From: a virus
IMG/VR virus record: IMGVR_UViG_3300028844_002785
Coordinates: 23,129 to 87,128 of that record
Length of the DNA stretch: 64,000 nt
Reading direction: 5' to 3' (one strand)
Shown here: in pieces, positions 6,800-40,495 of the stretch
How the letters are laid out: the number at the start of each line of letters is the position of its first letter
Numbering within the stretch: position 1 is the stretch's first letter
Position numbers and translations under genes: made by a program
The notes under the pieces: generated by a model
What the model was told of the DNA's origin: nothing
Databases searched by the model: none
Seen by the model: the letters and a program-made list of their open reading frames with translations, nothing else

Positions 6800-8875
6800 A
6801 TGGCAACTATTTTAAAGATCAAAAGATCTAGTACTAACCCAACAGCAACCCCATCAGCGCTTGGGCAAGGTGAACTTGCCTACGGTGAAGGTACTAGTAC
6901 GTATACTGACGCACAGAGTGCTTCAGTAACTTCTTTCGGTAAACTATTTGTTGGTAGAGGAACCGAAACAAATGGTGAAGCCGCTAATATTGATATTATT
7001 GGTGGTAGGTATTTTACCGACCTTTTAGATCACGGACATGGTACAATAACTGCAAACTCTGCAGCAATTGTTGACTCTGCTAACAAGGTCGATGAATGGA
7101 ACGTAGATAATATTACTTTAAATGGAAATACAATTTCCACAACAAACAGTAACGGTGACCTTACAGTAGATACCAATGGTACTGGTGATGTAATTATCTC
7201 TGGTGCGGCTACTCTAGGAACTAACACATTTAAGATTACCGATGGTTCAACTGACAGATTTGTAGTTGATTCATTCTCTGGTGCTATAGACATTACAACT
7301 CCATCACTAAGTACTGCAGATACAGCATTAAACATTGGAACTACATGGAACAATTCTGGTGCAGTATTTTATGGTATTGACGTTGATGTAACTAACAGTG
7401 CTTCTGCATCTGGATCAAGACTTATTAATTTATCTGTAGGTGGTGCTGATAAATTTAATGTTGATTTAAGTGGTAATGTCAGTATGACTGGCGATATCAA
7501 TTTTCAGAATGCTACTAATTTTTCTCTACAAGATGATACTGCAGATGCATTTACAATTAAAGAAGGTACTAATAAGTACGTTGATATTGATACCACAAAT
7601 GGTTCTGAGTTAATTACACTTGGAACTGGTAATGTTGATATTGATAACGATCTAAACATCGATGGTGGGGATTTAACCACCAATCAAACTACTTTTAACC
7701 TACTAGAAACAAACGCTACTACCGTCAATGCATTCGGTACTGCTACCGCAATTGACGTTGGTGCTACTTCTGGTACGTTTACTCTAAATAACCCAACTTT
7801 AGTTGGTACTCAGACAACACAGAACGTATTCAATGCAACTGCTACCACAGTTAATGCATTTGGTGCTGCTTCTGTACTAAACATTGGTGCAGCTGCTGGA
7901 ACAACTACACTACGTTCTTCGACTTTAGTTGGTACTGAGACAACACAGAACGTATTCAATGCAACTGCTACCACAGTTAATGCATTCGGCGCAGCAGCGA
8001 CAATCAATATTGGTGGTGCAGCGACAGATATAGTTAACATCGGTGATGATTCTACCGAAGTTGATTTTGGTGATCTAAGAATTCTTGGATCAACTATCTA
8101 TAGTGATAATAGTAATGCTCAAACAATTACTATTGACCCATATCCTGGCGGTGGTGATGCTGGTGGTAACGTTGTTGTTCGTGGTAACTTGCAAGTTGCT
8201 GGTACTACCACAACAGTCAACTCCACCCAGATGACCATTAATGATCCTGTCTTTACATTAGGAGACAGCATCAGCGAGAAGACTGTTACTGCTGCTGCAA
8301 ACAGTGGTCAAGCAGATGTTGTTCTTGATAGTGTAGATGGTTTAAATGCAGGTGATGTTGTTTCTGGAAATGCATCAGTTCCCAATGGAACTACTATTAG
8401 TTCCATCAACACTGGAACTAAAACTGTCACTCTCAGTGCAAACCTATCCAGTGGTATTGCAGCGAGTGTAAACGAAGCAGTTGTAACACTAACCTTCACA
8501 CAAGGTGCTGACGATAACCAAGACCGTGGTATTGAATTCAAGTACTATAACAGTGGACTCAAGACAGGTTTCTTTGGATACGACGAGTCTGGAACTTCTG
8601 AAGGTGGATCAACAACTTACTACTTCACATATATTCCAGATGCGACAAATGCTTCGCAAGTATTCTCCGGAACAGTTGGTAAAGCATACTTTGATACTGT
8701 AAAACTAGAAATTGGTAACCTCAATGGTGTTCCATTCTTTGATCAGTACAAGAGACTAACCACAACTGCTACTCCAGGTTCTGCTGATATTACTACATCA
8801 GATAAAATTCTGACTACTAATGGTGCAACTGGTGTTCCTGTATGGACAACTACTTTGGACGGTGGCACATACTGA
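6800..8875 (+). CDS. Tail fibre-like protein
   Basis: N-terminal IKRS...LGQGELAY fibre motif, Gly/Thr/Asn-rich repeats, GNLQVAGTTTTVNST motif, C-terminal LDGGTY. Confidence 0.75.
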   Translation: MATILKIKRSSTNPTATPSALGQGELAYGEGTSTYTDAQSASVTSFGKLFVGRGTETNGEAANIDIIGGRYFTDLLDHGHGTITANSAAIVDSANKVDEWNVDNITLNGNTISTTNSNGDLTVDTNGTGDVIISGAATLGTNTFKITDGSTDRFVVDSFSGAIDITTPSLSTADTALNIGTTWNNSGAVFYGIDVDVTNSASASGSRLINLSVGGADKFNVDLSGNVSMTGDINFQNATNFSLQDDTADAFTIKEGTNKYVDIDTTNGSELITLGTGNVDIDNDLNIDGGDLTTNQTTFNLLETNATTVNAFGTATAIDVGATSGTFTLNNPTLVGTQTTQNVFNATATTVNAFGAASVLNIGAAAGTTTLRSSTLVGTETTQNVFNATATTVNAFGAAATINIGGAATDIVNIGDDSTEVDFGDLRILGSTIYSDNSNAQTITIDPYPGGGDAGGNVVVRGNLQVAGTTTTVNSTQMTINDPVFTLGDSISEKTVTAAANSGQADVVLDSVDGLNAGDVVSGNASVPNGTTISSINTGTKTVTLSANLSSGIAASVNEAVVTLTFTQGADDNQDRGIEFKYYNSGLKTGFFGYDESGTSEGGSTTYYFTYIPDATNASQVFSGTVGKAYFDTVKLEIGNLNGVPFFDQYKRLTTTATPGSADITTSDKILTTNGATGVPVWTTTLDGGTY
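7796..7986 (+). repeat. 65-bp direct repeat (1 mismatch, 126-nt period) inside the fibre gene
   Basis: actttagttggtact(c/g)agacaacacagaacgtattcaatgcaactgctaccacagttaatgcatt at 7796-7860 and 7922-7986. Confidence 0.9.
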
Positions 8876-32889: not shown

Positions 32890-33984
32890 ATGAACTCTAC
32901 TGACGTAATTGTTTCAGATCTAATCTCTCGATTTGGGTCAAGCGTTACTCGTAAAAATATTTCCGAATACAGTGAGACTAGTGATGCTTCCTTTGTAACC
33001 TTGTGTAATCGACTAAAGCCATACAAGGTTGGTCGTGGTTTGTATAATCTTACAGTTAAAGAAAAACTAGAACAGAATTATTCAACTGATACTGGAGTTC
33101 CTTTTATTGAAATCCAAAATCTTGTTCCGGATAAAGATCCTACATATGTTCCTTTTGGAAATTTTTCTGATGTAAAGAAAATTATCAAGTCTGGTATTTT
33201 CTATCCAACGTTTATTACTGGTCTGTCTGGAAATGGTAAAACATTTAGTGTAGAACAAGCATGTGCTCAACTTGGACGAGAACTTGTTCGTGTAAACATT
33301 ACTATTGAAACTGATGAAGATGATCTTATTGGTGGTTTCCGTCTTGTCGATGGGGCAACTGTTTGGCATAACGGACCTGTCGTTGAAGCACTTGAACGAG
33401 GAGCAATCTTGTTACTCGATGAAGTTGACCTTGCTAGCAATAAAATCCTCTGTCTACAGTCCATCCTTGAAGGTAAAGGTGTGTTCCTGAAAAAAATTAA
33501 CAAATATGTTAATGTAACAGATGGGTTTAATGTATTCGCAACAGCTAATACTAAAGGTAAGGGTTCTGATGATGGAAGATTTATTGGTACTAATGTGCTA
33601 AATGAAGCATTCCTTGAAAGATTTGCGGTAACGTTTGAACAGTGTTATCCTAATCCTACAACAGAACAAAAAATTCTTGATGGTGTTTCATCAACTCTAG
33701 ATATGCAAGAGTCGTTAGATACGACATTCTGTAAAAATCTGGTGGACTGGGCAGAAATTATTCGTAAAACATTTGCCGAAGGTGGTATCGACGAAGTTAT
33801 TTCAACTCGTCGTTTAGTTCACATTATTCGTGCATACAGTATCTTTGGTAATGAATCTAAAGCCCTTAGTGTTTGTTTGAATAGATTTGACAATGACACC
33901 AAACAATCTTTCCTAGATTTGTTTGATAAACTAGTTGCACCTAAGGAAGAAACTTTTGATGATCAAGACTTGACAACACTGTAA
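32890..33984 (+). CDS. cobS: CobS-like/MoxR-family AAA+ ATPase
   Basis: GLSGNGKT, LLLDEVD, ATANTKGKGS, NEAFLERF, STRRL; start moved to ATG 32890, downstream of the promoter. Confidence 0.9.
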   Translation: MNSTDVIVSDLISRFGSSVTRKNISEYSETSDASFVTLCNRLKPYKVGRGLYNLTVKEKLEQNYSTDTGVPFIEIQNLVPDKDPTYVPFGNFSDVKKIIKSGIFYPTFITGLSGNGKTFSVEQACAQLGRELVRVNITIETDEDDLIGGFRLVDGATVWHNGPVVEALERGAILLLDEVDLASNKILCLQSILEGKGVFLKKINKYVNVTDGFNVFATANTKGKGSDDGRFIGTNVLNEAFLERFAVTFEQCYPNPTTEQKILDGVSSTLDMQESLDTTFCKNLVDWAEIIRKTFAEGGIDEVISTRRLVHIIRAYSIFGNESKALSVCLNRFDNDTKQSFLDLFDKLVAPKEETFDDQDLTTL

Positions 33985-34020
33985 ATAATTTGTATAATCA
34001 ATAGGGTGAAATTCCCTATT
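33970..34020 (+). promoter_or_regulatory. Consensus sigma70 promoter with a leader hairpin
   Basis: TTGACA-17nt-TATAAT (33970-33998), then aataggg-tgaaatt-ccctatt. Confidence 0.75.
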
Positions 34021-34326: not shown

Positions 34327-34992
34327 ATGAAAATTTCCATCGAAACTCTGAATATTCTCAAAAACTTTTCTAACATCAACTCTTCGTTGGTTGTTAAAAA
34401 GGGAAATATTCTGCGAACTATTTCTCCTGCAAAAAATATTCTTGCAAAGTTTGAATGTCCAGAATCTTTCGACAATGATTTTGCTGTATATGATCTAAAT
34501 GAATTTCTGGGTGGTCTCTCTCTGTTTAAGGATCCTGACTTTGATTTTGGTAATACTTCTTATCTTTCTATTCGCAGTAATAAATCTAGAGTTAAATACT
34601 TTTTCTCCGATCCCAGTGTGATTACTGCTCCTCCAGAAAAAGATATTGAACTACCAACTATTGATGTTGAGTTTACTTTGACTGAAGAAGTTCTTTCGTC
34701 ATTGATTCGTGCAGCAAGTGTGTATCAACTTCCCGATCTTTCCTTGGTTGGTGAGAATGGAAACATGAATCTTGTGGTTCGTACAAAGAACAATGATACA
34801 TCTAACAATTTCTCCGTCAAGGTTGGTGAAACTGAGAATGAATTTTGTTTCAATTTCAAAGTAGAGAACCTAAAACTTATGCCTGGAGTGTATAATGTTC
34901 AGGTATCTACTGCTAATATTTCAAAGTTTACACATGATAAGTGGAACTTGTCCTATCTTATTGCTCTAGAACCTGACTCTACTTTTAATTGA
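34327..34992 (+). CDS. gp45: Sliding clamp gp45
   Basis: TLNILKNFSNINSS, AVYDLNEFL, YLIALEPDS. Confidence 0.96.
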   Translation: MKISIETLNILKNFSNINSSLVVKKGNILRTISPAKNILAKFECPESFDNDFAVYDLNEFLGGLSLFKDPDFDFGNTSYLSIRSNKSRVKYFFSDPSVITAPPEKDIELPTIDVEFTLTEEVLSSLIRAASVYQLPDLSLVGENGNMNLVVRTKNNDTSNNFSVKVGETENEFCFNFKVENLKLMPGVYNVQVSTANISKFTHDKWNLSYLIALEPDSTFN

Positions 34993-34994
34993 TA

Positions 34995-35936
34995 ATGAGT
35001 GATTTTATCTGGGTTGAAAAATACCGTCCTACTAAAATTGAAGACTGTATTCTCCCCGAAGGTATCAAAACTACCTTACAAAGTTTTGTTAAAAAGGGGG
35101 AAGTTCCAAACCTTCTCCTTGCTGGTCCCCCTGGTATCGGCAAAACTACAGTTGCAAAAGCTCTTTGCAACGAACTTGGTGTTGACTTTTACGTAATTAA
35201 TGGATCTGACGAAGGACGATTTCTGGACACGGTACGGAACCAAGCAAAGAATTTTGCGACGACCGTATCACTTCAAGCAAATGGAAAACCAAAAGTTATC
35301 ATCATTGACGAAGCAGATAACACAACCAATGATGTACAACTCCTCTTACGGGCAAACATTGAGGCGTATCATAACAACTGCAGATTCATCTTCACCTGCA
35401 ACTACAAAAACAAAATCATCGAACCCCTCCACAGTCGATGTGCCGTCGTTGACTTCTCAGTCAACGGAAAGGAAAAGACAGCTATTGCGGGGCAATTTTT
35501 CAACCGTATCAGGTCTATACTTGAGAAAGAAACTGTTGATTATGATCCTAAAGTTGTCGCAGAAGTAATCAAAAAATATTTTCCTGATTGGAGACGTGTC
35601 TTAAATGAATTGCAAAGATATGCTTCTATTGGTAGTATTGACACAGGAATTCTAACTGCAGTTTCTGAAGTCAATCTGAAAGATCTTGTTGGTAATATGA
35701 AAAATAAAGACTTTAGTAAAGTTAGGAAGTGGGTTGTGGAAAACCTTGATAATGATCAAAGTGCAGTTCATCGTAAAGTATATGATACCATGTATACATC
35801 TTTGGAACCTGCATCTATTCCACAAGCTGTTTTAATTTTTGCTAAATATCAATATCAGTCTGCATTTGCTGTTGATCCAGAGATCAATACGCTTGCATGT
35901 ATGACTGAACTAATGTGTGACTGTAAATTCAAATGA
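34995..35936 (+). CDS. gp44: Clamp loader large subunit gp44
   Basis: WVEKYRP, GPPGIGKTT, IIIDEAD, PLHSRC. Confidence 0.97.
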   Translation: MSDFIWVEKYRPTKIEDCILPEGIKTTLQSFVKKGEVPNLLLAGPPGIGKTTVAKALCNELGVDFYVINGSDEGRFLDTVRNQAKNFATTVSLQANGKPKVIIIDEADNTTNDVQLLLRANIEAYHNNCRFIFTCNYKNKIIEPLHSRCAVVDFSVNGKEKTAIAGQFFNRIRSILEKETVDYDPKVVAEVIKKYFPDWRRVLNELQRYASIGSIDTGILTAVSEVNLKDLVGNMKNKDFSKVRKWVVENLDNDQSAVHRKVYDTMYTSLEPASIPQAVLIFAKYQYQSAFAVDPEINTLACMTELMCDCKFK

Positions 35937-36223
35937 ATGTAAAACTTATTCGTATGTCTTCTGGTGAAGACGTTGTTGCTACTATCGTCAGTGAAACTGA
36001 TAGTATACTTGAAGTAGAAGATGCTATTGTAGCAATTCCTACTGGTGAGAGCCAAATTGGATTTGCTCCATGGTCTCCTCTTGTATCAAAATCGGACAAA
36101 ACTTTGCCCGTAAATAAAAAATTTGTGGTTTACATTGCAGAGGTTGCAGAAGACATCGTAAACCAGTATAATCAGATGTTCAGTAAAATTGTAACTCCAA
36201 CTAATAAACTGATATATAAATGA
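35933..36223 (+). CDS. Conserved hypothetical protein (Sm-like)
   Basis: VKLIRMSSGEDVVA...IGFAPW; ATGA coupling to gp44. Confidence 0.75.
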   Translation: MNVKLIRMSSGEDVVATIVSETDSILEVEDAIVAIPTGESQIGFAPWSPLVSKSDKTLPVNKKFVVYIAEVAEDIVNQYNQMFSKIVTPTNKLIYK

Positions 36224-37332
36224 TTCTTTCTCCAGAAGATACTCTATACGCATACGGTAAGATCAATGAAGCATACGGTTCTATCAACCGTATTGATGAC
36301 TTCTTTCGTATGAAAAAAATTGAACGTATCAAAGAGATTCCACCAACTCTCTTTGGTTTGTCCCATGAAGATGATCTGTTTCAGGATTTCTCTATGCATC
36401 CTGAGGACATGAACTTTCGTATTGTTCAACCAGACCACAGCACGTTCAATACTCTTCTGGAAATGACTGCATCATTTACCTACGAGGAAGCACCAGGTAA
36501 AGAGATGAAACTGATGATCCAGGAGACCACCACAGGCACCGCTGTAGGGTTCATCAAACTGGGTTCTCCCATCATCAACTCCAAACCTCGTAACGAGTGG
36601 TTGGGAGGGGTTCCTGACCTGACCATCTTCAACAAACGTGCGATCATGGGATTTATCATCGTTCCTACTCAACCGTTTGGATTCAACTATCTTGGTGGTA
36701 AACTTCTGTCATTGATCTGTTGTAGTCATGAAGTTCGTGAGATGTTGAATAAGAAGTACAATACAGAAATGTGTTTGTTTGAGACAACATCGTTGTATGG
36801 TAATATCAAAGGTACCAGTCAGTATGATGGTCTAAAGCCATACCTTCGTTATCGTGGAGATACAGAATCTAAGTTTCTGTTGACTCTCCCAGACTTCATC
36901 TATCATGATCTGAGTAAGTGGTTTATTGAAAGGAATGGTGGTCCTTTAATTCATAAAGGTGCTTCTAGTCGCAAACTCAAAATTCAAACCAAGATGATTT
37001 CTATCATCAAAAATTCTCTGAAGGAATACTATCCAGATCTGTATACAGAGTTTGTTGCATTCATTAAATCTAAACAGGATGTGACAACTCAGAAACGTTT
37101 TTATATGTCTGACTATGGATATGAAAACGCTAAAGATGTTATACTTGGTAAAACTGAAACACTAATTCCAAACAAACAAAACTTCGATAAATTTTATCTA
37201 GAAAATATGGTACAATGGTGGAAACGAAAAGCTTCTAATCGTTACCAAAAACTTGTTAGTGAAAATTATCTGAGAACAGATATTGAAGTTTGGAATTCTA
37301 ATACTATGAACACTATTGACATTATCAGATGA
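36220..37332 (+). CDS. DUF4338 / DruA-like protein
   Basis: GFIKLGSP, PFGFNYLGGKLLSLICCS and FETTSLYG..SQY motifs. Confidence 0.65.
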   Translation: MILSPEDTLYAYGKINEAYGSINRIDDFFRMKKIERIKEIPPTLFGLSHEDDLFQDFSMHPEDMNFRIVQPDHSTFNTLLEMTASFTYEEAPGKEMKLMIQETTTGTAVGFIKLGSPIINSKPRNEWLGGVPDLTIFNKRAIMGFIIVPTQPFGFNYLGGKLLSLICCSHEVREMLNKKYNTEMCLFETTSLYGNIKGTSQYDGLKPYLRYRGDTESKFLLTLPDFIYHDLSKWFIERNGGPLIHKGASSRKLKIQTKMISIIKNSLKEYYPDLYTEFVAFIKSKQDVTTQKRFYMSDYGYENAKDVILGKTETLIPNKQNFDKFYLENMVQWWKRKASNRYQKLVSENYLRTDIEVWNSNTMNTIDIIR

Positions 37333-38672
37333 CGCTTACCAAATTCTTAACTGACCAAAAATTTGAAAAGACTATACGAATTTTAGTCTATCCAAACATT
37401 ACGTTCTCTAAGGATTTGACAAAGGATAGTTATATTCAAGTGATTACAAATATGATCACTGAGCTTAATAAGATTCGTACTGATTTATTTTTCTATTTAA
37501 TTCTCCCATCTTTCTTGGAGATGTTGGACTTTCCTAATACCAGTCAACTTATTATGAAAGTTCCTACGTATCCTCCTACGATGCGTTCTCATTTTGATGT
37601 AGATTTTTTCAGAAGACTTATCAATCATGATCTTGATATTGATTTAGTATTCTCTCATCTTCCAGAACATACACATGCTATTAAAAATACTATCAGTAAT
37701 GTAACTCATCATAGCCCTTCTTACTTTGGATATTGTCACTGGTTTGATCTCAAAGAAGTTGTTGCATGGAGTCAACCAAGTTTCAATCAAAATATTCTTG
37801 GACTACTTGAGATGGAACGTTGCTATCTCAATACACAGAGTCAAAAAAATCTTGTATTAAAGCAATCGACCGAAACCTTTAATAAGGGAACCCTTATTAA
37901 ACTTAAGGACATTCTTACACCACATCATCTAGGAGTTAAAGAATCTGATATTGTAGAACCAAATACAAATACCGATAAATTAATTGTTTTTAATCACAGA
38001 CCTGATACATATAAAGACTTCAATAACTTTATGAAGGTTCTAGAGTCTCTCAGAGAGGTTAGAGAAGACTTTACTGTGTGGATACCATTGTTAGAAAAAT
38101 CAGATAAGGATTGGATTACTACTGAGAAGTTTAATAAGCAACGTTATTACAAAAAACTTCAACAATGTAGAGTTGGATTTTCTCCAAAACAAGTTTATGG
38201 TGGATGGAGTGTTTCAACTACAGATGGTATTATGAATGGTTGTCCATATATTATGTACGACGCTGATTACTATCAAGAACTAAATCCAACTGCAGATTTC
38301 TTTACTGAAAATTCTACCGCTGTAAATCTTTTGAATAAGTATCTAGATGATCCTGGATATCGAAATGAGATGTCTGTCAAATCTCAATCTTATTTACGTG
38401 AAAATCTTATCTATACTGCTGAAATTAAAAACATAAGTGATTACATAGATGATCTTATTGATAGACAAAAATGTATTCAGTCTGATGTGACAACCAGATT
38501 AATTGATATAATTAAATCGAAGGGACAAGTTACTAAAAAAGAATTATTTAATTCCTACCTTGGTTGGGGTAGAGGAATTAAGTTTGGTCCTTACCGGAGA
38601 GCTTTGCTCAATCATGAAAATATCTATGATACAATAGATTCCACTCCTTATTATTGCTGGATTGACACTTAA
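37329..38672 (+). CDS. GT-B fold glycosyltransferase with C-terminal winged-helix-like domain
   Basis: DLVFSHLPE, IVFNHR..YK, GWSVSTTDGIMNGCPYI (GT4-like donor-binding segment), LLNKYLDDP..R; short helical tail RLIDIIKSKGQVTKKEL. Confidence 0.7.
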   Translation: MTLTKFLTDQKFEKTIRILVYPNITFSKDLTKDSYIQVITNMITELNKIRTDLFFYLILPSFLEMLDFPNTSQLIMKVPTYPPTMRSHFDVDFFRRLINHDLDIDLVFSHLPEHTHAIKNTISNVTHHSPSYFGYCHWFDLKEVVAWSQPSFNQNILGLLEMERCYLNTQSQKNLVLKQSTETFNKGTLIKLKDILTPHHLGVKESDIVEPNTNTDKLIVFNHRPDTYKDFNNFMKVLESLREVREDFTVWIPLLEKSDKDWITTEKFNKQRYYKKLQQCRVGFSPKQVYGGWSVSTTDGIMNGCPYIMYDADYYQELNPTADFFTENSTAVNLLNKYLDDPGYRNEMSVKSQSYLRENLIYTAEIKNISDYIDDLIDRQKCIQSDVTTRLIDIIKSKGQVTKKELFNSYLGWGRGIKFGPYRRALLNHENIYDTIDSTPYYCWIDT

Positions 38673-38675
38673 ATT

Positions 38676-39059
38676 ATGGAACTTAAAGACTGGTTGAACT
38701 CTATTAATCAATCAAAAATTAACTTGATTGATGAAGACTATGGTACAGAAAAAGATTATCCCCCATTCATTATCAATAAGTGTATGTCTGGTTTTATAGA
38801 CACAGTTCTTATCGCTAATGAAATGAATATTCATTCTGATCTTTCAAAGAAGATGCAATATGATTTTTTTATAAATATTGTGAGACCGAAAAAAAGATTT
38901 TCTCCATGGTTGAGAAAAGAAAAACTTGACACCCTAGAACTCATCAAAAATTATTATCATTATAATGATGAGAAAGCCAGAAGTGCTCTGAGACTTTTAT
39001 CGGAAGAACAAATTGAATTTATCAAACAAAGGATGAAAACTGGAGGAAAAAATGAGTGA
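38676..39059 (+). CDS. gp62: Clamp loader small subunit gp62
   Basis: LKDWLNSIN, YPPFIINKCMS, KKRFSPW. Confidence 0.95.
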   Translation: MELKDWLNSINQSKINLIDEDYGTEKDYPPFIINKCMSGFIDTVLIANEMNIHSDLSKKMQYDFFINIVRPKKRFSPWLRKEKLDTLELIKNYYHYNDEKARSALRLLSEEQIEFIKQRMKTGGKNE

Positions 39060-39486
39060 AGTTCTGGAGTACAATTGGTCGCCTGATAAAATGGTTGAGG
39101 TGACACTCAAGGAGCCTGATGATTTTCTGAAGGTTCGCGAGACTCTTACTCGTATCGGTGTTGCATCACGTAAAGAAAAAAAGATTTATCAGTCTTGTCA
39201 TATTTTGCATAAACAAGGTAAGTATTATATCGTTCACTTCAAAGAGTTGTTTGCTCTTGATGGTAAAAAAGCAAATCTTTTTGTAAATGATATTCAACGT
39301 AGAAATCGTATTGCTCAGTTGTTATCTGACTGGGGGTTGGTTGATGTAGTAGAATCTTCTATGGTTGAAGATTGTGCTCCTCTAAGTCAAATTAAAGTTC
39401 TTTCTTATAGAGATAAAGGTGAGTGGACTTTAGAAAGTAAGTATAATATTGGTAAAAAGAAAACAACTACTACTCAGTCAGTATAA
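39052..39486 (+). CDS. regA: Translational repressor RegA
   Basis: DDFLKVRETLTRIG, QSCHILHKQGKYYIVHFKELF. Confidence 0.97.
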   Translation: MSEVLEYNWSPDKMVEVTLKEPDDFLKVRETLTRIGVASRKEKKIYQSCHILHKQGKYYIVHFKELFALDGKKANLFVNDIQRRNRIAQLLSDWGLVDVVESSMVEDCAPLSQIKVLSYRDKGEWTLESKYNIGKKKTTTTQSV

Positions 39487-40025: not shown

Positions 40026-40193
40026 TCACTTTGTATACAGATGACCGCGATAGCAAAATGTACCATGGGTCTCTTTTGATTCTACACAACGAGTAGAGTA
40101 CTCAACACCACGATATGAGGTGTGTGTAATCTGTGCGTCGTGAAGTGCAGATGCTTTGTTGATCTGCTTCTTGATCATGTTTAGTGTGTTCAT
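40026..40193 (-). CDS. DUF4278-like small protein (55 aa)
   Basis: Two YRG motifs (SYRGVEY, CYRGHLY); RBS AGGAG before ATG 40193; lies downstream of a glutamine-riboswitch-like RNA. Confidence 0.75.
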   Translation of the reverse strand: MNTLNMIKKQINKASALHDAQITHTSYRGVEYSTRCVESKETHGTFCYRGHLYTK

Positions 40194-40227
40194 TGTGTTA
40201 CTCCTAAAGTAATGAGGGTTTTTAATC

Positions 40228-40460
40228 CCCGTTCCTTCAGTCGTGTGCGTCCCAATACCATTGACATTCTGGTGCTGAGTCCTTAAGGGTCTCAACTAAC
40301 TCAATCTTAAGCTGATTGTTAAGATCATTATTGTTCTCAATCTTCAGCATGATAGCATCAGTTTGAGTACAGGTGAGTGTTGTATAGAATAATAGTTCTA
40401 GCATGGGATGAACGGCTCCGTTCCGCGACTTACTTGCGTCCGATTTCTCGGATGAACGAC
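40228..40460 (-). ncRNA. Tandem glutamine riboswitch-like RNA (glnA / Downstream-peptide type), second aptamer split by an ORF
   Basis: Aptamer 1: CGTTCA-TCCGA-GAAA-TCGGA-CGCA-AGTAAGTCGC-GGAACG. Aptamer 2: CGTTCA-TCCCA...TGGGA-CGCA-CACGACTGAA-GGAACG. It precedes a DUF4278-like gene, the known context of this riboswitch class. Confidence 0.75.
40237..40404 (-). CDS. 55-aa ORF nested in the riboswitch P2 loop (not in the ORF track)
   Basis: MLELLFYTTLTCTQTDAIMLKIENNNDLNNQLKIELVETLKDSAPECQWYWDAHD-stop. Confidence 0.65.
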   Translation of the reverse strand: MLELLFYTTLTCTQTDAIMLKIENNNDLNNQLKIELVETLKDSAPECQWYWDAHD

Positions 40461-40466
40461 AGGTCT

Positions 40467-40495
40467 ATTATAGACCTTATATAGTATTTAGTCAA
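40467..40495 (-). promoter_or_regulatory. sigma70 promoter driving the riboswitch transcript
   Basis: TTGACT-17nt-TATAAT; predicted start near 40460, the first base of aptamer 1; inverted repeat aggtcta-tta-tagacct covers the -10. Confidence 0.75.

What the first reader, a model, noticed from the sequence alone, without database searches (positions are those of the whole stretch)
36220..38672. DUF4338/DruA-like gene plus GT-B glycosyltransferase with winged-helix-like tail within the clamp-loader operon
Seen: gp44 and gp62, adjacent in T4, are separated by three ATGA-coupled genes. One has DruA/DUF4338-like motifs. The next is a GT-B enzyme ending in a roughly 60-aa helical domain (RLIDIIKSKGQVTKKELFNSYLGWGRG...YRRALL) resembling a winged helix. 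Established: T4 alpha/beta-glucosyltransferases are GT-B enzymes acting on DNA, whereas cyanophage LPS-type GTs usually sit in separate islands. Inference: a replication-coupled DNA hypermodification (anti-restriction) system of unknown chemistry. No hydroxymethylase or TET-like gene is visible in this window.
Basis: partly seen in the sequence, partly recalled or inferred. Interest (0 to 1): 0.7.

Follow-up and report, generated by a model that had tools for sequence, protein, structure and literature searches.

The report
Phage GNAT plus glycosyltransferase modification module
Inside the clamp-loader operon of an uncultured marine T4-like phage sit two linked enzyme genes, an acyltransferase-fold DruA-family protein and a sugar transferase with a basic winged-helix-like tail, which most likely decorate the phage's own DNA with sugars, although the target is not proven.

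Summary
In the order gp45-gp44-orf96-ORF370-ORF447-gp62-regA, three junctions are ATGA overlaps. ORF370 passes Pfam DruA/DUF4338 and models as a GNAT fold. ORF447 has no Pfam or PHROG hit but models confidently (pLDDT 86) as a GT-B/GT4 glycosyltransferase (Z 27.9). It carries an extra basic 66-residue tail with winged-helix topology.

New here: the glycosyltransferase is absent from 50,697 cultured phage records but common in marine viromes (263 IMG/VR loci). In all 73 loci with enough upstream sequence it lies downstream of a DruA-like gene. This holds in three genome contexts: after gp44/orf96, after gp43, and after hsp20.

The DruA-like gene anchors a variable island. Members are a heptose/glycerol-type nucleotidyltransferase, TAGT (the family of the T2/T6 second DNA glucosyltransferase) directly after the glycosyltransferase, and, in single loci, a TET/JBP dioxygenase and an N6/N4 DNA methylase.

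This supports DNA glycosyl-hypermodification (about 45%). No hydroxymethylase or TET gene was found in the contigs carrying the glycosyltransferase. The GNAT is not Mom-like beyond the shared fold, and DNA binding is untested. Host envelope or another target remains a serious rival.

"Replication-coupled" is not shown, because the glycosyltransferase follows the DruA-like gene, not the replisome genes.

The parts
33970..33998 (+). Sigma-70-like promoter (TTGACA-17-TATAAT, 12/12) upstream of the co-directional gene run
   Evidence: This is a consensus match only; the total number of promoter-like sites in the region is not above the shuffle expectation.
34327..34992 (+). gp45 sliding clamp (context)
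   Evidence: Homologues at 43-97% identity lie upstream of gp44 in the related loci.
34989..35936 (+). gp44 clamp-loader large subunit (context)
   Evidence: Pfam AAA and Gp44_lid; phrog_168 E 8e-133.
35933..36223 (+). orf96, small conserved cyanomyovirus gene (phrog_527; T4-GC158). Probably not part of the module.
   Evidence: It is present between gp44 and gp62 in S-SSM7 and S-SCSM2R whether or not the module is there. It lies elsewhere in HTVC008M-type loci.
36220..37332 (+). ORF370: DruA/DUF4338-family protein with a GNAT-fold core (about residues 60-330; Pfam match at residues 68-193 = nt 36421-36798)
   Evidence: Pfam PF14236 at 41.3 bits; phrog_19197 E 4e-152. AF2 pLDDT 67; all of the top 50 VIA hits are GNAT-superfamily proteins, Z 6.0-7.6. 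The invariant loop QPFGxN..GGK lies between beta4 and alpha3, the position of the CoA-pyrophosphate loop.
37329..38471 (+). ORF447 catalytic body: GT-B fold, GT4-like glycosyltransferase (residues 1-381)
   Evidence: Conserved NHR..YK and WS..(D/E)G..G.P motifs. Distant family members score Pfam Glycos_transf_1 / Glyco_trans_1_2.
38472..38672 (+). ORF447 C-terminal tail (residues 382-447 plus stop): basic domain with winged-helix topology
   Evidence: H-E-H-H-E-E order at pLDDT 88-94. It lies outside all GT alignments. It is conserved down to 20% identity, with W413 and R423 nearly invariant. Net charge is +3 to +8 on an acidic body. No sequence-profile support.
38676..39059 (+). gp62 clamp-loader small subunit (context)
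   Evidence: Pfam Phage_clamp_A E 2.8e-13; phrog_225.
39052..39486 (+). RegA translational repressor (context)
   Evidence: tblastn identity of 67-95% to this gene (regA in the cultured-phage records) in related loci. Annotated as regA in S-SSM7 and others.

Best explanation
ORF370 and ORF447 form a two-enzyme accessory module of marine T4-like myoviruses, transcribed with the clamp and clamp-loader genes.

Shown by fold or sequence:
- ORF370 is a DUF4338/DruA-family GNAT-fold acyltransferase-type protein.
- ORF447 is a GT-B/GT4-type nucleotide-sugar glycosyltransferase.
- ORF447 carries an added basic C-terminal domain with winged-helix topology.

Shown by comparative context:
- The GT is always found downstream of the DruA-like gene.
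- The pair sits in an island that in relatives also holds a sugar-1-phosphate nucleotidyltransferase and a TAGT-family glycosyltransferase.
- Single loci add a TET/JBP dioxygenase or a DNA methylase.

Inferred: the module hypermodifies the phage's own DNA after replication, to blunt host nucleases. The tail holds the GT on DNA. The GT moves a sugar from an NDP-sugar to an acceptor group on a base. The donor is host-made in this phage and phage-made where the nucleotidyltransferase is present. TAGT, where present, adds a further sugar, as in T2/T6.

The GNAT either creates the acceptor by acylating a base or acylates the sugar or donor. Which of these is not resolved.
For: Fold and family.

Linkage:
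- Among 80 IMG/VR loci fetched with the GT, every one of the 73 with enough upstream sequence has a DruA-like gene upstream on the same strand.
- The order DruA then GT is kept in three contexts: gp44-[orf96]-DruA-GT-gp62; gp43-DruA-[insert]-GT; hsp20-DruA-NTase-GT.
- GT divergence between contexts (56-59%) matches that of DruA (60-62%), gp43 (about 53%) and gp44 (about 56%). This argues for long co-residence rather than recent insertion.

DNA-directed context:
- A Pfam TAGT (PF20691) gene lies directly after the GT in L065 and L115 (cyanophage type) and in L129, L130, L151 and L161 (E 1.4e-22 to 3.5e-12).
- TAGT is the T2/T6 enzyme that adds the second glucose to glucosyl-hmC DNA (PMC13216743, PMC13390438).
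- L140 has DruA-...-Tet_JBP (68 bits against a cut-off of 34.9)-TAGT. L136 has an N6_N4 DNA methylase before TAGT.
- An RfaE-II/TagD-like nucleotidyltransferase is translationally coupled to the DruA-like gene in 19 of 56 informative loci.
- A phage cytidylyltransferase plus a GT-B enzyme was shown experimentally to make heptosyl-5hmC DNA. Those DNA GT-B enzymes also hit MshA and PglH structurally (bioRxiv 10.1101/2023.12.21.572611).
- The solved DNA 5hoC-arabinosyltransferase of phage HY126 aligns at Z 22.4.

Other support:
- The tail is basic and is a conserved hallmark of the family.
- DUF4338 is described as a GNAT domain of DNA-centred defence proteins (PMC10853773).
Against: - No ThyA-like hydroxymethylase, ThyX, TET/JBP, TGT/DpdA or TAGT gene is in the window's 87-kb contig. 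No ThyA-like or TET gene is in five other GT-bearing records. All are fragments, 26-47% complete.
- A 91%-complete relative with the DruA-NTase-p328 form also lacks ThyA-like and TET genes.
- No known DNA glycosyltransferase works without a base hydroxyl.
- The closest solved structures are GT4 enzymes acting on small molecules, lipids, glycans or proteins.
- The winged-helix call rests on predicted topology only. Pfam and Atlas gave nothing for the tail.
- The GNAT has no specific likeness to Mom, and its model is only moderately confident (pLDDT 67).
- TET and the DNA methylase occur in only 1 each of 56 informative loci (tblastn found the methylase in 3 loci of the wider set). The island is also a hot spot for homing endonucleases.
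- No cultured phage carries the GT, so no chemical data exist.
Confidence: 0.45

Rival explanations
1. The module is a glycan or glycoconjugate auxiliary pathway aimed at the host envelope or a small molecule. One possibility is LPS or O-antigen alteration that blocks superinfection. Here the GNAT N-acylates an amino-sugar nucleotide, the nucleotidyltransferase activates the sugar, and the GT4 enzyme transfers it to a lipid or glycan acceptor. The tail would serve in protein contacts or regulation.
For: - The top structural neighbours are GT4 enzymes of polysaccharide, LPS, teichoic-acid, mycothiol and bacillithiol pathways.
- GNAT hits include the nucleotide-sugar N-acyltransferases FdhC and PseH.
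- The nucleotidyltransferase is most similar to RfaE domain II and TagD.
- The pelagimyophage literature reads rfaE and GT genes as LPS-related auxiliary genes (PMC7029224).
- No base-hydroxylating enzyme was found.
Against: - TAGT, TET/JBP and a DNA methylase occur in the same islands.
- The island sits among replication genes, not in the tail-fibre/LPS hypervariable region described in PMC7029224.
- The basic winged-helix-like tail is conserved across the whole GT family.
- The DruA-like gene occurs alone, without any GT, in 31 cultured phage records.
- DNA GT-B enzymes proven by experiment give the same MshA/PglH-type structural hits.
Confidence: 0.25
2. The pair modifies a protein or an RNA rather than DNA. 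The target could be a host defence or replication factor, a phage replisome protein, or tRNA. This would be a takeover or counter-defence device in which acylation and glycosylation inactivate or retarget the substrate.
For: - GNAT and GT4 enzymes include many protein- and RNA-directed members (SdgB, Naa80 and RimI appear among the hits).
- The genes are expressed with early/middle replication genes.
- Distant GT-family members lie in a bacterial integrase/defence island (PycTM-like, CHAT, helicase-REase neighbours) and next to an ARPP-1 conflict-system protein.
- A winged helix can bind RNA or protein.
Against: - No substrate candidate is linked by gene order.
- The TAGT, TET and DNA-methylase neighbours point to DNA.
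- The nucleotidyltransferase suggests an unusual sugar donor. That is typical of glycan or DNA hypermodification pathways rather than of single-site protein glycosylation.
Confidence: 0.17
3. The two genes are not functionally linked. ORF447 is an independent accessory gene that repeatedly lands in, or is kept at, a recombination hot spot that happens to lie next to the DruA-like gene.
For: - The spot is hypervariable. It holds homing-endonuclease-like, HNH, GmrSD_N-like and small unknown ORFs.
- DruA and GT identities to the window are uncoupled in some loci (for example L047: 94% against 67%), which shows recombination between them.
- The DruA-like gene occurs without the GT in many phages.
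- Distant GT-family members have no DruA-like neighbour.
Against: - Co-occurrence is 73 of 73 on the same strand and in the same order, across three unrelated flanking contexts.
- The two genes overlap by ATGA in the window and in many relatives.
- GT divergence parallels that of core genes.
Confidence: 0.08

Closest known systems
T2/T6 DNA glucosylation pair: alpha-glucosyltransferase (GT-B) plus TAGT (PF20691, GT-A)
   Same: In six related loci a GT-B enzyme is followed directly by a TAGT-family gene. Both systems are in T4-like phages. T4 alpha-GT also associates with the sliding clamp (PMC13216743).
   Different: ORF447 is GT4-like with a C-terminal winged-helix-like tail. T4 AGT and BGT did not appear among the listed structural matches. 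No dCMP hydroxymethylase was found. The window itself has no TAGT gene. A GNAT-fold partner is unknown in the T-even system.
Metavirome 5mYOX/ThyS-associated DNA glycosylation clusters (Pyle et al., bioRxiv 10.1101/2023.12.21.572611): HAD/APH enzyme + cytidylyltransferase + GT-B making heptosyl-5hmC
   Same: A cytidylyltransferase-family nucleotidyltransferase is paired with a GT-B enzyme. The GT-B models resemble MshA/PglH-type GT4 enzymes. One relative (L140) has TET/JBP + TAGT beside the DruA-like gene.
   Different: Those clusters are defined by an adjacent C5-methyltransferase and a TET or ThyS gene. Neither was found in the GT-bearing contigs here. The constant partner here is a DUF4338 GNAT-fold protein instead.
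Phage Mu Mom (GNAT-fold adenine carbamoylmethylase; PF25680; PDB 8bv8)
   Same: Both have a GNAT-superfamily fold (VIA Z 6.8, rmsd 4.1, 162 residues) and are phage-encoded. One database record annotates a homologue of ORF370 as 'methylcarbamoylase mom'.
   Different: There is no sequence relation: no Pfam Mom hit, and hhalign probability is 0.3%. The structural score is tied with dozens of unrelated GNATs.
DruA of type I Druantia (PF14236/DUF4338)
   Same: ORF370 passes the Pfam DruA gathering threshold over the core of the domain and gives weak PADLOC DruA matches.
   Different: It is phage-encoded, has no DruB-E neighbours, and covers only profile positions 54-182 of 297. It belongs to a separate phage family (phrog_19197). 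The function of DruA itself is unknown, so the name explains nothing.
GT4 retaining glycosyltransferases (MshA, BshA, PimA/PimB', methylmannose polysaccharide mannosyltransferase 7qsg)
   Same: The two-Rossmann GT-B fold (Z 25-28 over residues 13-381). The R/K diphosphate-binding-type motif and the acidic residue in the WS..(D/E)G..G.P helix are conserved.
   Different: Sequence identity is only 9-13%, and ORF447 itself has no Pfam hit. It has an added C-terminal basic domain. It is phage-encoded inside a replication operon.

Membership tests
Pfam DruA / DUF4338 (PF14236) | Score above the curated gathering threshold | tested here: met
   41.3 bits against a cut-off of 27, E 1.4e-10, residues 68-193 on profile positions 54-182 of 297. 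99 of the 120 listed homologues carry a precomputed PF14236 hit. Atlas clusters are 74-99% DruA.
Type I Druantia defence system | druA accompanied by druB-druE (large YprA-like helicase DruE) | tested here: not met
   The neighbours are gp44, orf96, the GT and gp62. PADLOC gives only weak DruA matches (24 and 18 bits) and nothing for ORF447.
GNAT superfamily | GNAT fold (mixed beta-sheet with the beta4-alpha3 pyrophosphate-binding loop) | tested here: met
   All of the top 50 VIA-wide hits and all listed Foldseek PDB hits belong to the GNAT (acyl-CoA N-acyltransferase-like) superfamily; most are GNAT enzymes (Z 6.0-7.6; Foldseek probability 0.9-0.98). The invariant QPFGxN..GGK segment lies between predicted strand 141-147 and helix 159-167. 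The model has only pLDDT 67, and Z below 8 is modest.
GNAT superfamily | Acyl-CoA (or acyl/aminoacyl donor) binding and transfer | not testable with these tools
   Needs biochemistry.
Mom family (PF25680) | Sequence membership in the Mom profile | tested here: not met
   Mu Mom scores 253 bits on PF25680, while ORF370 gives no hit even at E up to 1. hhalign of A2 against Mu Mom gives probability 0.3%.
Mom family (PF25680) | Specific structural likeness above other GNATs | tested here: inconclusive
   8bv8 scores Z 6.8 at rank 8, within 1 Z of more than 40 unrelated GNATs. A BFVD Mom model scores E 0.09 at rank 21.
GT-B fold / GT4-like glycosyltransferases | Two Rossmann-like domains superposable on solved GT-B enzymes | tested here: met
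   VIA Z 27.9 (rmsd 3.1, 340 residues aligned) to 7qsg; 917 of 998 chains score Z of 8 or more. Foldseek E 2.6e-14. Model pLDDT 86.4.
GT-B fold / GT4-like glycosyltransferases | Pfam Glycos_transf_1-type sequence signal | tested here: inconclusive
   ORF447 itself has no hit. Family members do: P0104 has a precomputed PF00534 hit; P0206 scores 26.8 bits against 26.4; P0230 scores 30.1 bits on Glyco_trans_1_2 against 25.
T4 alpha-/beta-glucosyltransferase (GT72/GT63) | Closest structural or sequence relation to AGT or BGT | tested here: inconclusive
   Neither appears among the 48 Foldseek rows or the 50 VIA rows shown. The profile search of PDB sequences gave no GT at all. Absence from a capped list does not exclude a distant relation.
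Winged helix-turn-helix | H1-S1-H2-H3-S2-S3 topology | tested here: met
   DSSP of the AF2 model gives H386-398, E400-402, H403-411, H420-427, E432-435, E441-444, at pLDDT 88-94. This is topology only.
Winged helix-turn-helix | Sequence-profile match to a known wHTH family; nucleic-acid binding | tested here: inconclusive
   No Pfam hit better than E 0.15 for five tails. Atlas score is 0.75, below the useful range. The tail is basic, +3 to +8. Binding itself is not testable here.
TAGT (PF20691) DNA glycosyltransferases | A TAGT gene is present in the module | tested here: not met
   None is in the window or its 87-kb contig. TAGT is present directly after the GT in the relatives L065, L115, L129, L130, L151 and L161.

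The most novel reading that the evidence does not exclude
The DUF4338/DruA-family GNAT is itself a DNA-base-modifying enzyme. It would install an acyl-type group on a base without any hydroxymethylase or TET. The wHTH-tethered GT4 enzyme, and TAGT where present, would then glycosylate that group. This would be a new route to glycosylated DNA, used by a large share of marine T4-like phages. It would also give the first biochemical clue to what DruA does in Druantia.
Probability: 0.15. Interest if true: 0.9.

Novelty: new variant of a known kind. Interest (0 to 1): 0.62.

Why it matters
T4-like cyanophages and pelagiphages are among the most abundant viruses in the sea, and they are usually assumed to carry unmodified or merely methylated DNA.

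- The DruA-like family has about 6,600 clusters at 90% identity in public data, and the GT family about 1,500.
- Neither family has a known function.
- The GT is missing from every cultured phage record searched.

If the module glycosylates DNA, several things follow. Sugar hypermodification would extend to the dominant ocean myoviruses. A pathway without the known hydroxymethylase or TET entry step would come to light. There would be consequences for restriction, CRISPR escape and sequencing bias in marine viromics. DUF4338/DruA would gain its first testable activity.

If the module instead targets the host envelope, it is an abundant superinfection-exclusion device that lies inside the replication operon.

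Tried and rejected
The long contigs that encode close GT homologues, such as the 138-kb contig of P0036, could not be read.
- **Mom membership** was rejected: no Pfam Mom hit, hhalign probability 0.3%, structural score tied with generic GNATs.
- **Sequence support for the wHTH tail:** Pfam at E up to 10 on five tails and the ESM Atlas on residues 378-447 gave nothing usable. The tail could not be folded alone because of the fold cap.
- **PDB sequence searches:** profiles of both families, and of p328, gave nothing relevant.
- **Cultured phages:** tblastn of three GT subfamilies found no match.
- **Distant GT alignments** (A4, A5) were too divergent for the search for related loci. P0204, P0257 and P0243 are not in IMG/VR.
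- **PADLOC:** no model matches the GT family.
- **Acceptor-generating enzymes:**
  - PF00303 and PF12851: no match in the window's contig or in ten related records, except the TET of L140, which served as the positive control.
  - PF02511, PF01702 and phrog_842: searched in the window's own contig only, no match.
  - Nearly all records are fragments, so this is weak evidence.
- **Nanopore runs** holding this DNA: none was listed.
- **p328 against the GT family:** hhalign probability 15% over 19 columns, so no relation is shown.
- **Fusions:** the search for longer forms of the DruA-like domain found only a LAGLIDADG fusion and one 1,127-residue protein with no second Pfam domain. No GNAT-GT fusion turned up.


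Full report
**What the window is.** The window is part of an 87-kb IMG/VR viral contig, estimated 47% complete. DNA-level matches are to Synechococcus and Prochlorococcus T4-like myoviruses, at only 75-83% identity and only in core genes. The region reads gp45 (34327-34992), gp44 (34989-35936), orf96 (35933-36223), ORF370 (36220-37332), ORF447 (37329-38672), gp62 (38676-39059) and regA (39052-39486), all on the + strand. A perfect TTGACA-17-TATAAT lies at 33970-33998, and no convincing terminator lies on the + strand inside the run.

**Check of the observation.**
- gp44 and gp62 are confirmed by Pfam and PHROGs.
- The junctions gp44/orf96, orf96/ORF370 and ORF370/ORF447 are ATGA overlaps. ORF447 and gp62 are separated by 3 nt.
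- One qualification applies. In cyanomyoviruses gp44 and gp62 are normally separated by orf96 (phrog_527, T4-GC158), as in S-SSM7 and S-SCSM2R. Only ORF370 and ORF447 are accessory.

**ORF370.**
- It passes the Pfam DruA/DUF4338 threshold (41.3 bits against 27; residues 68-193).
- It matches phrog_19197 end to end (E 4e-152).
- The AF2 model from 17 sequences is moderate (pLDDT 67, pTM 0.63).
- Every listed Foldseek PDB hit and all of the top 50 hits of the Foldseek-independent VIA search belong to the GNAT (acyl-CoA N-acyltransferase-like) superfamily (Z 6.0-7.6 over residues about 60-330).
- This agrees with the statement in PMC10853773 that DUF4338 is a GNAT domain.
- An invariant QPFGxN..GGK segment sits between predicted beta4 and alpha3, where GNATs bind the CoA pyrophosphate.
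- It is not a Mom relative in any specific sense. It gives no hit to Pfam Mom, which Mu Mom itself hits at 253 bits. hhalign probability is 0.3%. The solved Mom structure 8bv8 scores Z 6.8, tied with dozens of other GNATs.
- The best viral structural matches are uncharacterised giant-virus proteins.

**ORF447.**
- It has no Pfam, PHROG, NCBIfam or PADLOC hit.
- The AF2 model is confident (pLDDT 86.4, pTM 0.84).
- It is a GT-B fold closest to GT4 enzymes. Foldseek gives E 2.6e-14 to 7qsg. VIA gives Z 27.9 (rmsd 3.1, 340 residues), with BshA, MshA, PimB', HepE, PglA and TarM at Z 24-27.
- The solved DNA 5-hydroxycytosine arabinosyltransferase of phage HY126 aligns at Z 22.4.
- Conserved NHR..YK and WS..(D/E)G..G.P motifs fit a working nucleotide-sugar site. 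This reading comes from alignments A1 and A3 and from my knowledge of GT4 motifs.
- Distant family members reach the Pfam Glycos_transf_1 or Glyco_trans_1_2 thresholds.
- Residues 382-447 lie outside every GT alignment. They are predicted as H-E-H-H-E-E at pLDDT 88-94, which is winged-helix topology.
- This tail is a family hallmark. It persists to 20% identity with W413 and R423 nearly invariant. It is basic (+3 to +8) on an acidic body in the marine clade.
- No sequence profile recognises it, and it could not be folded alone.

**Distribution and linkage.**
- The GT family is abundant in metagenomes. It has 1,533 clusters at 90% identity, 479 representatives at 50% identity and 263 IMG/VR loci.
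- It is absent from 50,697 cultured phage records.
- The DruA-like family is about four times larger, with 6,586 clusters and at least 594 IMG/VR loci. It occurs alone in 31 cultured phage records, among them S-SSM7, S-SM2, S-CAM9, S-T4 and HTVC008M.
- In the 80 loci fetched with the GT, all 73 with enough upstream sequence have a DruA-like gene upstream on the same strand. The other seven are cut at or near the GT.
- The order is kept in three flanking contexts:
  - gp44-[orf96]-DruA-GT-gp62, the window type;
  - gp43-DruA-[0.5-2 kb insert]-GT, the HTVC008M type;
  - hsp20-DruA-NTase-GT.
- GT identity between contexts (56-59%) is close to that of DruA (60-62%), gp43 (about 53%) and gp44 (about 56%). 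This suggests long co-residence.
- The GT therefore tracks the DruA-like gene, not the clamp loader.

**The island around the DruA-like gene.** I scanned 80 loci anchored on the DruA-like gene; 56 had at least 2.3 kb downstream.

| Feature downstream of the DruA-like gene | Loci (of 56) | Note |
|---|---|---|
| GT447-family gene | 31 | |
| p328, an uncharacterised 328-residue protein | 19 | never together with the GT |
| Neither | 6 | |
| RfaE-II/TagD-like nucleotidyltransferase | 19 | always with GT447 or p328; often ATGA-coupled to DruA |
| Pfam TAGT gene | 12 | 5 with the GT, 6 with p328, 1 with TET |

- Counting all loci fetched, TAGT lies directly after the GT in six: L065, L115, L129, L130, L151 and L161.
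- L140 has Tet_JBP (68 bits against a cut-off of 34.9) followed by TAGT. L136 has an N6_N4 DNA methylase before TAGT. L138 and L154 have an FkbM-type methyltransferase. L133 has another GT4 gene.
- Homing-endonuclease-like, GmrSD_N+HNH and ParB-like genes are also inserted here.
- TAGT is the T2/T6 enzyme that adds the second glucose to glucosyl-hmC DNA (PMC13216743, PMC13390438).
- A phage cytidylyltransferase plus a GT-B enzyme has been shown to make mono- and di-heptosyl-5hmC DNA. Those GT-B enzymes likewise resemble MshA and PglH (bioRxiv 10.1101/2023.12.21.572611).
- GNAT annotations are listed among the domains that co-occur with phage 5-methylpyrimidine dioxygenases (PMC13229309).

**What argues against DNA.**
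- No ThyA-like hydroxymethylase, ThyX, TET/JBP, TGT/DpdA or TAGT gene is in the window's contig.
- No ThyA-like or TET gene is in five other GT-bearing records, all 26-43% complete.
- Neither is in a 91%-complete 161-kb relative of the DruA-NTase-p328 type. The TET search was validated on L140.
- Known DNA glycosyltransferases need a base hydroxyl.
- The pelagimyophage literature interprets rfaE and GT genes as LPS-directed (PMC7029224).
- TET and the DNA methylase are rare in the sample (1 each of 56 informative loci; tblastn found the methylase in 3 loci of the wider set).
- The site is a general insertion hot spot.
- p328 in cultured HTVC008M lies 15 kb from the DruA-like gene, beside gp46/47. 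Its mutual exclusion with the GT may therefore reflect lineage rather than function.

**Wider family.**
- Distant GT-wHTH members (20-24% identity) occur without a DruA-like neighbour.
- One is in an Acidobacteriaceae MAG. It lies inside an integrase-bearing island with SocA/Panacea, PycTM-like, CHAT plus metallophosphatase, and helicase-REase genes.
- Others are in low-GC virus-like contigs, next to an ARPP-1 protein.
- The GT-wHTH architecture is thus a broader conflict-associated family. The DruA pairing is specific to marine T4-like phages.

**Verdict.**
- The folds and the operon structure are established.
- The functional link between the two genes is well supported by comparative genomics.
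- The target is inferred. I put DNA glycosyl-hypermodification at about 45%, envelope or other glycoconjugate at about 25%, and a protein or RNA target at about 17%. No functional link at all gets about 8%.
- The most novel reading not excluded is that the GNAT creates the acceptor on DNA, which would give a route independent of hydroxymethylase and TET (about 15%).
- I found no published description of this pairing in the searches made.

Noticed in passing
L144:5110-6096 (also L116, L119, L128, L133, L136, L138, L142, L149, L154, L165, L174): A conserved 328-residue protein (p328) follows the DruA-like gene in 19 of 56 informative loci and is never found together with the GT447 family. It has no Pfam, PHROG or PDB-sequence match. 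From memory, its C-terminal ...SRYPEAL..G.IPF... stretch resembles a GT-B motif; this is untested. HTVC008M has a 38%-identical copy beside gp46/47.
   Followed up: partly
L140:6128-7462 and 7644-8450: A TET/JBP dioxygenase (PF12851, 68 bits) followed by a TAGT glycosyltransferase lies about 1 kb downstream of a DruA-like gene in an HTVC008M-type marine phage contig. A MazG-like gene lies between them.
   Followed up: partly
L025:2619-3146; L077:6269-6823; also L036, L039, L040, L042, L043, L065, L108, L113, L149, L158: A 175-184-residue protein with no family match recurs immediately beside the DruA-like gene, upstream in cyanophage-type loci and downstream in HTVC008M-type loci. Its D...DVERWK stretch looks like a PD-(D/E)xK nuclease motif. 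That reading is by eye and is untested.
   Followed up: no
window 37329-37370 (ORF447 residues 1-14): The disordered N-terminus of the GT reads M-x-L-x-x-F-[LFIV] in the cyanophage-type clade (MTLTKFL, MNLTAFL, MNLDDFI). It resembles the C-terminal SLESFFV of this phage's own gp43, the position of the clamp-binding peptide in T4/RB69 polymerases. This is a possible clamp-interaction motif. It is untested.
   Followed up: no
L082:5359-6819; L073, L127, L135: A GmrSD_N (DUF262/ParB-like) + HNH protein is inserted between the DruA-like gene and the GT in several HTVC008M-type loci. A 324-residue ParB-like protein takes the same position in L083, L094 and L096. GmrSD-family enzymes are known to cut glucosylated DNA.
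   Followed up: no
L103:8001-9485 (Acidobacteriaceae MAG contig): A bacterial member of the GT-wHTH family lies in an integrase-bearing island with SocA/Panacea, a PycTM-like protein, CHAT protease plus metallophosphatase, and a helicase-REase_MTES_1575 gene. A co-directional 226-residue unknown gene abuts it.
   Followed up: partly
L182:8992-12447; L183:5431-8177: In low-GC virus-like metagenome contigs, a distant GT-wHTH gene is followed by a conserved ARPP-1 (PF20208) protein. Nearby are LicD, a cytidylyltransferase, a methyltransferase, a racemase and a PD-(D/E)XK nuclease.
   Followed up: partly
P0391, P0392; BFVD A0A3G4ZXG3, A0A5K0UAJ3, A0A3G4ZRA1: The DruA-like domain also occurs fused to a LAGLIDADG domain (871 residues) and inside 1,100-1,260-residue proteins of klosneuvirus-like giant viruses.
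   Followed up: no
window 40026-40495: Earlier notes of this scan report a tandem glutamine-riboswitch-like element with an embedded small ORF between regA and hsp20. I saw the strong minus-strand promoter (40495-40467) and the terminators there, but did not examine the element.
   Followed up: no
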